Of a DNA stretch of 64,000 nt, positions 9,449-11,873 are shown one piece after another. Origin of the DNA: Moniliella sp. 'wahieum' (Eukaryota). The notes under the pieces are model-generated. The model made no database searches. It saw nothing but the letters and a program-made list of their open reading frames with translations, and had not been told where the DNA came from. The stretch spans positions 434,001 to 498,000 of the forward strand of contig RSEE01000044.1 in assembly GCA_003971905.1 (NCBI GenBank), given 5' to 3'. Positions within the stretch are counted from its first letter, which is position 1. Each line of letters opens with the position of its first letter. The position numbers were made by a program, and so were the translations under genes.

Positions 9449-11873
9449 TTACTGCTTGAACGAGCCAAAGACAGCATTGCCATCAGGCAGCGCCAACAAA
9501 CTGTCCAACTGAGCCCACGCATTGGCCGTGTTGCGGTGAATATACGCCTCATTCTCGGGGAAGCGCAGAGCACGCCAGGTGGGAATAACCAAACGAAGTG
9601 CAAACCGAGCCAAGACAAAATCAAAGATCAACTTACGTTCGAGTGGGCTGAACGGCCGGACATCGTTGTACCCCCGCAAGAAACTTAGTCCCCGCTCCAG
9701 CCAATCCGAATCGCTGTCGGGTGCACCGAGACTGTACACTGCACCCACCGCAGCATCCTGTACCACAGGGGCACGGATGGAATCGCCCCAATCAATGATC
9801 CCTACCACTTCATCGGGTGCGGTGTGACTGACCAACACATTGGCCGCATTCAAATCGTTGTGCACCACCGACTGTTCCAGCTCACCACTCGCCACATAGG
9901 GAGCGACCCGCTGCTCATAATTGACAATCAATCCCTCGACCACTTCTCGCTCCTTGTCAGAGCGTAGTGCATCCATGTACTTGCGCATCTGTCCCACATG
10001 CGTGGCGTCCCACAGCAGCTCGTGGTCTTGGCCGGGGTGGGAAAAGCCTTTGAGCGCAAGGCTGATCTGGGCCCCCACTCGACCGATATTGTATGCTTGA
10101 GCGGGCGTACGGGGAGATGAGCTGAGCATGTCGCCCTCCAAAAAAGTGACAACCCTCACCACTCGGTTCTGGAATAAGAGCTGACCCTCGCTGTCCTTCG
10201 GTGAGGCCGTTGGTGACGGTTCAATCACCCGGGCTACAGGCAAGTGCGGCGCCACCTTTGGAGATGGTGTAGGACCGATGTTTGGAAGGCCGACATCTCG
10301 GCTGGTTCGGAAGGATGAACAAACTTGATGGTGAAACGCTGACCGTCCGAGGCGGTCACTCGAAAGTTGTCGTCCCGTTCCCCAATTAGCCGCTTGAGCG
10401 GCTGAGCGGCCGTGATACCGAAATGCTGTTCCAATACCTCTTGAGCTTCAGTTTCCGTCACTGGGGTCCGGTCCGCCTCCAGAACCGAGCCGCCCGTATT
10501 TGTTGATGGTGTGAGGGATGCACTCTGTATGGTTGCCTCGAGCGCGGCCAGGAAGTGCTGGGCATGGGCTTTGGTGAATGCAAGAAGAGGGCGAATCTTG
10601 AGCGAATTGCCTGCCTTCGAGGTGGTTGAGATAAGCACTCTGCGCTCCCGCATTGCGTTTACCACCAGCTTGGCCAGGTCGGCATCAGGCTCCTTGGACC
10701 CTCTGTCCTTCACGAACTCGACGGCAAAGTACTGTCCTGCGCCACGAACATCACCAATACAAGCGTACTTCTCTTTGAGCCGCTCAAGCCCTGCGAGAGT
10801 GAACCCCCCTACTTCCGCAGCTTGGGGCATGAGACGTAACACCTCGTCAAGTGTGGCACTGGCGGCTGCGATGCTCACAGGGTTGCCTCCAAAGGTATTG
10901 AAGTACCTTACGTCTCGGCCAAACGTATCGGCGACATCAGATCGAGCGATGCAGGCAGCAACGGGAACCCCATTGCCCATGGGTTTGCCCACTGTGACCA
11001 GGTCGGGAGGACACCGTGATTCTGGAAACCCCATACTTTGCTCCCCGTCCGACCAAACCCGGGCTGAACCTCATCGGCGATGAACAGTCCATCATGTTTG
11101 TGCACCACTTCCACTGCCGCCTTCAAAAATCCCTCGGGGCCGGGGAACATGCCGTCAGATGAGAAGATCGTGTCAACAAGGAGGCCGGCAAACTTGATCC
11201 CAGCTTTGGTCATGTCGGCAATCGCAGACTCAATGTCGGCGGCAAACTTGGCCCCCACATCAGTGCCGGTAGGCGTGCGGTAAAAGTCAGGAGCAGGTAC
11301 GGTGCGAGCATGCGGGTGCAACGGCGTGCCGGCACCCATGCTGGGTGAGAGAGAGGCGATGAGCTCAGAGGTGCCATGGTACGCATTGTCGGTGACAATA
11401 ATACCTGTGCCGCCAGTGAAATGCTTGACCATGCGCACCGCCAGGTCGTTCGCCTCAGATCCAGTGCAGGCAAACATGATTCGCCCCTTGCGCAGCTCGG
11501 GCTCGTGATCAAATGTAGCCAAGAGCCGGTCTGCATAATTGAGAATTTGATCGCTCATGTAACGGGTGTGGGTATTGAGGGTGGCGAGTTGCTTGCTCAC
11601 CGCTCCTACCACATGGGGATTGCAGTGCCCGACGCTGACCACGTTGTTGTAACAGTCGAGATACGCGGTGCCGTCCGGGTCGTACAGGTGCACGCCTTCG
11701 CCGCGCACGAATTCGACGGGGTGCTGATATTGAAGCTTGTAGGCTGGACCCAGGAGGCGTTGGCGGCGCTCAATGATGGTACGCTCGTGCGTATTCAGCG
11801 CTCCAGCGGTTCGAGGGTCGAATCCGTTCTGCATTCCTCCCGTAGGGTCGGAAGTGGACTTGGATGCGGACAT
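9449..11873 (-). CDS. fusion protein: N-terminal class-III PLP aminotransferase/phospho-lyase (PHYKPL/ETNPPL-like) + C-terminal aminoglycoside-phosphotransferase-like (hydroxylysine kinase-like) domain; intronless
   Basis: AT-III motifs [60 protein letters not shown], LKIRP. Kinase motifs [27 protein letters not shown]. The junction is in frame within ORF 10234-11034. Two indels at ~11020 and ~10255. Confidence 0.88.

What the first reader, a model, noticed from the sequence alone, without database searches (positions are those of the whole stretch)
9449..11873. Intronless class-III aminotransferase/phospho-lyase fused in frame to an APH-type kinase: a one-gene 'phosphorylate-then-eliminate' catabolic module in a fungus
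Seen: one ORF (10234-11034) runs without a stop from the AT-III C-terminus (LKIRPLLAFTKAHAQHFLAALEATI) through a short linker (SASLTPSTNTGGSVL) into the kinase N-lobe ([17 protein letters not shown]..KFVHP). The fusion therefore does not depend on correcting an indel. Catalytic motifs are intact: DEVQ, the PLP lysine in [18 protein letters not shown] and IIDWGD. Established: hydroxylysine kinase (HYKK/AGPHD1) and the phospho-lyases PHYKPL/ETNPPL act in sequence on amino alcohols, and bacterial homologues are adjacent or fused. The fusions I know place the kinase first. Inference: the lyase-first order suggests an independent fusion, giving an ~800-aa bifunctional enzyme that releases ammonia from hydroxylysine, ethanolamine or a related amino alcohol. 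I am not aware of this being characterised in fungi.
Basis: partly seen in the sequence, partly recalled or inferred. Interest (0 to 1): 0.82.

Follow-up and report, generated by a model that had tools for sequence, protein, structure and literature searches.

The report
Lyase-first kinase/phospho-lyase fusion in fungus
A basidiomycete fungus carries one intron-free gene that joins a vitamin-B6 phospho-lyase to a small-molecule kinase in the reverse order of the common bacterial fusions, probably to strip nitrogen from an amino alcohol; it is a rare, uncharacterised variant of a known enzyme pair.

Summary
On the minus strand, 11873 (ATG) to 9449 (TAA), a class-III PLP domain is followed by an APH-type kinase. 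One open frame (10234-11070) runs across the junction.

As assembled, the gene is cut by two 1-nt gaps, at 11005/6 and 10256/7. The same kind of lesion sits in importin-alpha and a septin of this window, so assembly error is likely.

Read through, the 808-residue product aligns end to end with an intact 818-aa relative at 72% identity. The PLP domain is phospho-lyase-like: 343 and 314 bits to 5g4i and 6tor, against 164 for the next fold-mate.

Lyase-first order is rare. It occurs in 11 of the best 120 relatives and 2 of the best 150 representatives among 1.84 billion proteins. All are unnamed.

Its closest kin are unfused bacterial kinase-then-lyase gene pairs (Brenneria roseae, one metagenome contig), not the bacterial kinase-first fusions. 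This supports an independent fusion, probably after transfer from bacteria.

The substrate is unknown and nothing was tested biochemically. I rate it a new variant of a known kind, of moderate interest.

The parts
9449..11873 (-). Whole gene, ATG 11873 to TAA 9449-9451. The read-through product is 808 residues with two unknown positions.
10516..11792 (-). Class-III PLP (phospho-lyase-type) domain envelope, read-through residues 28-453
11064..11075 (-). DEVQ motif (PLP-binding Asp)
   Evidence: invariant D269-Q272 in alignment A1
11005..11006 (-). Frame break 1: two leftover bases after ...GVL (ctc cc|gac). One base is missing in a C run relative to intact relatives (VQP-DLV in P0001).
10975..10989 (-). 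GKPMG, the Schiff-base lysine motif, shared with 5g4i and 6tor
   Evidence: K299 invariant in A1
10450..10515 (-). Inter-domain linker (about 22 residues, Ser/Thr/Gly-rich), poorly conserved among relatives
9470..10449 (-). APH-type small-molecule kinase domain envelope, read-through residues 476-802
10312..10329 (-). IKFVHP, N-lobe strand with the presumed ATP-binding lysine (K527 invariant in A1). The role of the lysine is recalled from APH-family knowledge and was not tested.
10256..10257 (-). Frame break 2: two leftover bases after ...HHLQ (caa ag|gtg). One base is missing at an A/G run relative to intact relatives (LNK-VSP in P0001).
9839..9862 (-). HNDLNAAN catalytic loop (HxDxxxxN)
   Evidence: H682, N683, D684, N689 invariant in A1
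9782..9799 (-). IIDWGD metal-binding (DFG-like) motif
   Evidence: D705 invariant, D708 nearly invariant in A1

Best explanation
This is a genuine nuclear gene of a basidiomycete (Ustilaginomycotina-like) fungus. It encodes an ~808-residue bifunctional enzyme with an N-terminal PLP-dependent phospho-lyase of the ETNPPL/PHYKPL/A1RDF1 type, a ~22-residue linker and a C-terminal APH-type kinase.

The inferred mechanism has two steps. The kinase uses ATP to phosphorylate the hydroxyl of a vicinal amino alcohol. The PLP domain then eliminates phosphate and, after hydrolysis of the imine, releases ammonia and an aldehyde or ketone. The net result is ATP-driven release of nitrogen from an amino alcohol whose identity is unknown. 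No presequence or PTS1-like end is visible, so a cytosolic location is likely (inference).

The two 1-nt frame breaks are most likely homopolymer errors of the assembly.

In evolution, the lyase-first fusion is separate from the bacterial kinase-first fusions. Both of its domains descend from the lineage of unfused bacterial kinase-then-lyase operons, so the gene most likely reached eukaryotes by horizontal transfer and was rearranged and fused there.

Shown: the architecture, the motifs, the subfamily placement, the rarity and the tree position. Inferred: the chemistry, the substrate class, the direction of transfer and the nature of the breaks.
For: Architecture and motifs.

Phospho-lyase placement: for P0001, 72% identical to the window product, the best solved chains are 5g4i (343 bits, E 3e-101) and 6tor (314 bits). 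The next is a racemase at 164 bits. The window's own frame B gives the same order.

Kinase: Pfam APH is above its cut-off (64.6 against 23.2 bits). The best NCBIfam hits are the kinase parts of NF004799/NF004800, then type-II homoserine kinase.

Catalytic residues of both domains are invariant in 11 of 11 lyase-first proteins.

Intactness apart from the two gaps: there are no stops in the 289, 249 and 268 codons of the three segments, and the read-through aligns end to end with P0001 at 72%.

Assembly error: importin-alpha changes frame twice with no gap in protein or DNA coordinates (15524-15536 and 16003-16006). A septin changes frame at about 39129-39136 inside its conserved core.

Fungal host.

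Origin:
- In careful IQ-TREE trees the lyase-first proteins plus the split pairs L004 (Brenneria roseae) and L081 form a clade. Support is 100/99 (AT, 44 rows), 100/100 (kinase, 40 rows) and 100/100 (concatenated, 24 rows).
- In all three trees the rows nearest outside this clade are also split bacterial pairs (L001, L002, L082, L084; L113 too in the AT and concatenated trees), but which of them is sister is weakly supported (82/59, 87/10, 61/33).
- The nearest kinase-first fusion, P0121, groups with a different split pair, L022.
Against: There are no biochemical data for this protein or for any lyase-first relative. As far as my searches went, there are none for the bacterial fusions either.

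No read data cover the two breaks, and no RNA run was found, so a true pseudogene is not excluded.

The kinase has no close solved relative: the only PDB hit is viomycin kinase at E 6e-4. I could not compare it with animal HYKK because no tool supplied that sequence.

The taxon of 9 of the 11 lyase-first clusters is not known. Only N-terminal features suggest a eukaryote.

In the best trees the bacterial pair L004/L081 sits inside the lyase-first group, not beside it. A single fusion is therefore only 'not rejected': AU p 0.21 and 0.37, and 36% of 200 bootstrap trees.
Confidence: 0.68

Rival explanations
1. The gene is a decaying pseudogene. The two frameshifts are real, and the fungus no longer makes the fused enzyme.
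For: As assembled, the reading frame is broken twice. The only public contig that matches (255 nt, window 10531-10785, identical) does not cover either break, and no RNA holder was listed.
Against: Essential genes in the same window carry the same 1-nt frame switches without introns: importin-alpha twice and a septin. Apart from the two gaps there is no stop in 806 codons. All catalytic residues are kept, and identity to an intact relative is 72% over the full length.
Confidence: 0.12
2. The two domains do not act in sequence on one amino alcohol. The PLP domain would be a transaminase, racemase or decarboxylase. Alternatively the kinase would phosphorylate something unrelated, such as homoserine, an antibiotic or a protein.
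For: Class-III PLP enzymes are mostly transaminases. NCBIfam also lists transaminase models at E 1e-33 to 1e-35. The kinase matches homoserine kinase models (E 6e-13) and viomycin kinase.
Against: The bit score to the two solved phospho-lyases is about twice that to any transaminase or racemase. Kinase and lyase are fused or adjacent in hundreds of bacterial lineages, which argues for a shared pathway: 251 kinase-first fusions among 300 proteins examined, 73 of 80 adjacent pairs and 43 of 79. Both domains share one evolutionary history.
Confidence: 0.12
3. The lyase-first order arose by circular permutation of an existing bacterial kinase-first fusion (duplication, then loss of the outer domains), not by a new fusion of separate genes.
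For: Kinase-first fusions are by far the commonest relatives. Tandem duplication is the textbook route to permuted domain order (recalled, not from a call).
Against: In all three careful trees the nearest relatives of the lyase-first group are split pairs, not fusions. All 99 bacterial or metagenomic loci in which both domains were found complete have them in different ORFs. The same duplication route would work equally well on an operon of two separate genes, so this rival differs only in its starting material.
Confidence: 0.08

Closest known systems
Bacterial kinase-first fusions: NCBIfam NF004799 (PRK06148) and NF004800 (PRK06149), ~1000 aa APH kinase / M23-like / class-III PLP, and the ~780-aa forms without M23
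   Same: The same two catalytic domain families in one polypeptide. These are the best NCBIfam hits for all three window pieces. The presumed two-step chemistry is the same.
   Different: The domain order is reversed and there is no M23 module. The summed scores (270.7 + 211.6 + 144.8 bits) are far below the 1128-bit cut-off. These fusions branch apart from the window's clade in both domain trees. They are bacterial, not fungal.
Unfused bacterial kinase-then-lyase operons, nearest: Brenneria roseae locus L004 and metagenome contig L081
   Same: They are the closest relatives of both domains. The AT domain is 59-60% identical to the window and 67-75% to P0003-P0012. The kinase is 43-45% and 40-53% identical. 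They form one clade with the lyase-first proteins (100/99, 100/100, 100/100).
   Different: They are two separate genes 2 nt apart, with the kinase first. They are embedded in a bacterial operon with a GntR/FCD regulator, an EamA exporter and, in L004, a polar-amino-acid ABC importer.
Animal HYKK (AGPHD1) with PHYKPL (AGXT2L2) and ETNPPL (AGXT2L1); Veiga-da-Cunha et al. 2012, J Biol Chem 287:7246
   Same: A kinase followed by a PLP ammonio-phospho-lyase acting on an amino alcohol. Human ETNPPL (6tor) is the second-best solved match at 314 bits.
   Different: These are separate genes in animals. I did not see the 2012 paper itself (not held), only its citation in the reference lists of PMC12138971 and PMC8154272. 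What it says about bacterial fusions is recalled. No HYKK or PHYKPL sequence was available for comparison.
O-phosphoethanolamine phospho-lyase of Arthrobacter aurescens TC1 (PDB 5g4i/5g4j; Cuetos et al. 2016, citation seen in PMC6750192)
   Same: It is the best solved match of the PLP domain (343 bits, residues 29-454 of P0001) and shares the TxGKPMGNG lysine motif.
   Different: It is a stand-alone 446-aa bacterial enzyme with no kinase domain.

Membership tests
Class-III PLP-dependent fold (Pfam PF00202 Aminotran_3) | Profile match above the gathering score across the whole domain | tested here: met
   131 and 90.7 bits against a 30.5 cut-off. Together the two pieces cover profile positions 10-402 of 403.
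Class-III PLP-dependent fold (Pfam PF00202 Aminotran_3) | Schiff-base lysine and PLP-binding Asp (DEVQ ... GKPMGNG) | tested here: met
   Both are present, aligned to the same motif in 5g4i and 6tor, and invariant in 11 of 11 lyase-first proteins. They lie in different frames of the assembly.
Ammonio-phospho-lyase subgroup (ETNPPL / PHYKPL / A1RDF1) | Closer in sequence to characterised phospho-lyases than to transaminases, racemases or decarboxylases of the same fold | tested here: met
   343 and 314 bits against 164 bits for the next solved chain. Frame B alone gives 124 and 114 against 84 bits.
Ammonio-phospho-lyase subgroup (ETNPPL / PHYKPL / A1RDF1) | Elimination of phosphate and ammonia from an O-phospho-amino alcohol, with no transamination | not testable with these tools
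   This needs an enzyme assay.
APH-type small-molecule kinases (Pfam PF01636), HYKK / type-II homoserine kinase branch | Profile match above the gathering score, plus the HxDxxxxN catalytic loop and the DxGD metal site | tested here: met
   64.6 bits against a 23.2 cut-off. HNDLNAAN and IIDWGD are present, and the equivalent residues are invariant in A1.
APH-type small-molecule kinases (Pfam PF01636), HYKK / type-II homoserine kinase branch | Orthology to animal hydroxylysine kinase | not tested
   No HYKK sequence or model was reachable. The only link is a source name, 'hydroxylysine kinase', on one stand-alone bacterial relative, P0296, and on fusion P0019.
NCBIfam NF004799 / NF004800 (PRK06148 / PRK06149) fusion proteins | Whole-protein score above the curated cut-off, with the order kinase, M23-like, then aminotransferase | tested here: not met
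   The pieces score 270.7, 211.6 and 144.8 bits against a cut-off of 1128. The kinase piece maps to profile 78-325 and the AT pieces to 582-1011, the reverse of their order in the gene. No part matches profile positions 326-581, where M23 would lie.

The most novel reading that the evidence does not exclude
The lyase-first fusion is a eukaryote-born enzyme family that has crossed kingdoms more than once. Either it arose at least twice by convergent fusion in the same unusual order after separate transfers from bacteria, or a fused eukaryotic gene went back into bacteria and was re-split into the Brenneria/L081 operon.

The best trees nest that bacterial pair inside the lyase-first group: 99/95 for the AT domain and 88/83 for the kinase. 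The Brenneria copy is sporadic in its order: only the centre genome among 201 Enterobacterales sampled has a match above 53% identity.
Probability: 0.15. Interest if true: 0.6.

Novelty: new variant of a known kind. Interest (0 to 1): 0.42.

Why it matters
Kinase plus phospho-lyase is a known two-step way to release ammonia from amino alcohols. It has been studied in animals and is catalogued, though seemingly untested, in bacteria.

This gene shows that the pair also exists in fungi as one polypeptide, with the domains in reverse order and an origin separate from the bacterial fusions. That gives three things:
- a natural test of whether domain order matters for passing the phosphorylated intermediate between the two active sites;
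- a likely case of bacterial-to-fungal gene transfer followed by fusion;
- a single compact gene that could be expressed to find the still unknown substrate of this branch of the family.

It does not bear on a long-standing open question.

Tried and rejected
- Whole genome of the window: not held, so I could not look for paralogues or separate kinase or lyase genes.
- Read support: one public run was listed, a food metagenome holding 0.09 of the sampled words. Laying it gave one 255-nt contig identical to 10531-10785 and nothing over the breaks or the linker. No RNA holder was listed.
There is therefore no model, no fold search and no view of domain packing.
- Veiga-da-Cunha 2012: not held.
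- Metagenome scan with P0004: 24 pattern matches, none confirmed.
I could not obtain DNA or a taxon for P0001-P0012.
- Cluster look-up: no names for 10 of 10 proteins.
- ESM Atlas: only bacterial two-domain clusters came back, and domain order is not reported.
- Notes on this genome from the scan: none.
- Literature: searches for a fungal or lyase-first fusion, for tests of the bacterial fusions, and for phospho-lyase signature residues found nothing relevant among the listed titles, abstracts and passages.
- First FastTree trees: they showed the lyase-first group as one clade with stand-alone genes nearest. This was superseded once the split pairs L004 and L081 were added.
- Bacterial contamination or a chimeric contig: considered and rejected. 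The gene lies between TRM61/GCD14 (7314-8897) and RMI1 (12118-13651) pieces on a 64-kb eukaryotic window of even G+C.
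Full report
**What is there.** The finding lies on the minus strand. Stop-to-stop frames and the DNA show a coding region from ATG 11873 to TAA 9449-9451, carried in three frames.
- Frame A (10908-11888) holds the N-terminal two thirds of a class-III PLP domain, up to ...[24 protein letters not shown].
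- Frame B (10234-11070) continues with [12 protein letters not shown] and the rest of that domain. It then runs through a Ser/Thr/Gly-rich linker and the start of a kinase (QHFGIT... IKFVHP... FQTSVLHHLQ).
- Frame C (9449-10447) holds the rest of the kinase, with HNDLNAAN and IIDWGD.

Pfam gives Aminotran_3 for A (E 6e-38, profile 10-267/403) and for B (E 1.1e-25, profile 250-402/403), and APH for C (E 1.6e-17).

**The frame breaks.** The A-to-B and B-to-C switches are single-base gaps, not introns.
- At 11005/6 the text reads ctc cc|gac. Intact relatives have V-Q/L-P-D-L-V there.
- At 10256/7 it reads caa ag|gtg. Relatives have L-N/Q-K-V-S/A-P.

A script read the gene through with X at each break. 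This gave 289 + 249 + 268 codons without a stop, 808 residues in all. The product aligns with P0001 (818 aa, an intact ORF from a public assembly) from residue 1 to 803 at 72% identity over 817 columns. So there is no intron and no other lesion.

**Whether the breaks are real.** I could not test this directly. The only public run holding part of the stretch gave one 255-nt contig identical to 10531-10785, which misses both sites.

Indirect evidence favours assembly error.
- Importin-alpha in this window matches Malassezia and Meira proteins in three successive frames. Protein and DNA coordinates are contiguous at 15524-15536 and 16003-16006.
- A septin switches frame inside its conserved core...FMRRLTQ | KVNLIPVIAKSD, at about 39129-39136.

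Two breaks in 2.4 kb of this gene match two breaks in about 1.7 kb of importin-alpha. I put a true pseudogene at about 0.12.

**Host.** The window encodes pieces of importin-alpha, septin, an actin-family protein, GCD14/TRM61, RMI1, ENTH, ELO, SWIB and an ABC transporter. The best named matches of the importin piece are Ustilaginomycotina: Malassezia furfur 79%, Meira 78%, Tilletiaria 77%. The gene sits between TRM61 and RMI1 pieces, in a window of even G+C. It is a fungal nuclear gene, not a contaminant.

**What the domains are.**
- PLP domain. For P0001 the best solved chains are the Arthrobacter phospho-lyase 5g4i (343 bits) and human ETNPPL 6tor (314 bits). The next, a racemase, scores 164, and GABA transaminases score about 150-158. 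Frame B alone gives the same ranking and shows the shared GKPMGNG lysine motif.
- Kinase domain. It is an APH-family small-molecule kinase. Apart from the fusion families, its best NCBIfam hit is type-II homoserine kinase. Its only PDB hit is viomycin kinase at E 6e-4.
- Conservation. In an alignment of 11 lyase-first proteins, the PLP Asp and Lys, the HxDxxxxN loop and the DxGD site are invariant or nearly so.

**Relation to known fusions.** All three window pieces hit NF004799 (PRK06148) and NF004800 (PRK06149) best. In those models the kinase piece maps to positions 78-325 and the PLP pieces to 582-1011, so the order is reversed. The scores are also far below the cut-offs.
- Of the best 120 proteins longer than 488 aa found with frame B, 108 are kinase-first, 11 are lyase-first and 1 has the PLP domain only.
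- An exhaustive profile search of 1.84 billion representatives returned 46,600 hits. Among the best 150, only P0004 and P0002 match the lyase-first profile in one stretch. Four are stand-alone PLP proteins. The other 144 have the PLP domain at the C-terminus. Weaker lyase-first proteins below the top 150 would not have been seen.
- None of the 10 lyase-first or related clusters looked up carries a name or an NCBI/UniRef source, except P0121, a kinase-first protein.
- Earlier notes of this scan describe eight bacterial kinase-first fusions and no lyase-first one.

**Who carries the lyase-first form.** P0001 and P0002 are close to the window (72% and 69%). P0005, P0008 and P0011 start with conserved, basic, acid-free extensions ending in RGF/RGL-AS, which look like mitochondrial presequences. 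That reading is my own and was not tested. Their paralogues P0006, P0007, P0009 and P0012 lack these extensions. This suggests eukaryotes with two paralogues. For P0003 and P0004 I have no indication of taxon.

**Origin.** I fetched 80 bacterial loci with the nearest stand-alone kinase and 79 metagenome loci with alignment A1.
- In the first set the PLP gene follows the kinase on the same strand in 73 loci, is divergent in 5 and is not in the flank in 2. None has lyase-then-kinase order.
- In the second set 43 loci are kinase-then-lyase, 35 have no kinase nearby and 1 has a kinase 8.4 kb away.
- All 73 and all 43 are separate genes: the frames differ or a stop intervenes. In all 99 loci with both domains complete, the domains lie in different ORFs.

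Two of these pairs stand out: L004 (Brenneria roseae) and L081 (a metagenome contig). Their PLP protein is 67-75% identical to P0003-P0012 and 59-60% to the window. Their kinase is 40-53% and 43-45% identical.

Careful IQ-TREE (PMSF) trees put the lyase-first proteins plus these two pairs in one clade.

| Tree | Rows | Clade support | Sub-clade without the window's group |
|---|---|---|---|
| PLP domain | 44 | 100/99 | 99/95 |
| Kinase | 40 | 100/100 | 88/83 |
| Concatenated | 24 | 100/100 | 61/95 |

The rows nearest outside this clade are split bacterial pairs in all three trees, but which of them is sister is weakly supported (82/59, 87/10 and 61/33). The nearest kinase-first fusion, P0121, groups with another split pair, L022.

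Inside the clade, the bacterial pair falls among the lyase-first proteins, with the window's group (which has a long stem) branching first. Holding the lyase-first proteins together is not rejected: AU p 0.214 and 0.369, and 36% of 200 bootstrap trees on the concatenated data show it.

The Brenneria copy is not typical of its order. Among 201 Enterobacterales genomes sampled, only the centre genome has a match above 53% identity.

**Reading.** The lyase-first fusion did not come from the bacterial kinase-first fusions. It shares an ancestor with a small, mobile lineage of unfused kinase-then-lyase operons. The operon context in Brenneria and L081 is bacterial: a GntR/FCD regulator, an EamA exporter and an ABC importer. 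The simplest story is therefore transfer from bacteria to eukaryotes, followed by rearrangement and fusion. Whether this happened once or more often is open.

**Function.** The mechanism is inferred from the families: ATP-dependent phosphorylation of an amino alcohol, then PLP-dependent elimination of phosphate and release of ammonia and a carbonyl compound. The substrate is unknown.

Weak hints come from 14 bacterial loci of the nearest split pairs. I scanned 53 chosen flanking ORFs: 43 of the 112 listed, plus 10.
- GntR/FCD regulators occur in 7 of 14 loci.
- Polar-amino-acid ABC binding proteins occur in 3 of 14.
- Oxoprolinase- or hydantoinase-type ring-opening enzymes occur in 4 of 14.
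- Amidases and amidohydrolases occur in several more.

This points to an amino-acid-like amino alcohol rather than plain ethanolamine. The fungal gene has no such neighbours, so the hint may not carry over.

**Novelty and score.** The enzyme pair and its fusion are known, so the chemistry is not new. Three things are new as far as my searches reach: the reversed order, its occurrence in fungi, and its separate origin next to unfused bacterial operons. The searches were and 81 of the held library, plus and 22 of the protein collections. I could not query InterPro. I rate it a new variant of a known kind, with interest 0.42.

Noticed in passing
window 14385-16050 (+) and 38552-39905 (-): Importin-alpha changes frame twice (about 15524-15536 and 16003-16006). 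A septin changes frame at about 39129-39136. In both cases neither protein nor DNA coordinates show a gap. ORFs across the window are short and overlapping (longest 622 aa), so the assembly seems to carry about one 1-nt indel per kilobase of coding sequence.
   Followed up: partly
L001, L008, L022, L085 (flanks of the kinase/lyase pair): Bacterial split kinase/lyase pairs often sit beside oxoprolinase- or hydantoinase-type ring-opening enzymes (Hydantoinase_A/B; CT_C_D + CT_A_B; LamB_YcsF), amidases and GntR/FCD regulators. This hints that in bacteria the substrate is made by opening a lactam or amide. An earlier scan note (e1-2462836) describes a similar operon.
   Followed up: partly
L004 = G001:C1:83520-85897; also G001:C2:361581-363916 and G001:C17:69184-70488: Brenneria roseae holds three phospho-lyase-type genes, at least two of them with a kinase just upstream. 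The copy closest to the fungal fusion has no match above 53% identity in 200 other Enterobacterales genomes sampled, so it looks horizontally acquired.
   Followed up: partly
P0005, P0008, P0011 versus P0006, P0007, P0009, P0012: One sub-group of lyase-first proteins has a conserved presequence-like N-terminus (…RGF/RGL-AS…). Its paralogues, apparently on the same contigs, lack it. This suggests mitochondrial and cytosolic isoforms in an unidentified eukaryote.
   Followed up: no
P0121 with L022; tree rows labelled KINAT and KINM23AT: Kinase-first fusions, with or without the M23-like module, are scattered among split pairs in the trees (8-9 changes of label among 11 rows). Fusion and fission seem frequent in this family.
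   Followed up: no
P0002 (894 aa): This close relative of the window's protein leaves the family alignment after ...GVIDW, inside the kinase, and ends in a Pro/Ala/Arg-rich tail. That suggests a frameshift or intron in its source contig.
   Followed up: no
window 61733-63598 (-): This is the longest open frame of the window (622 aa) and it has no Pfam match at E 1e-5.
   Followed up: no
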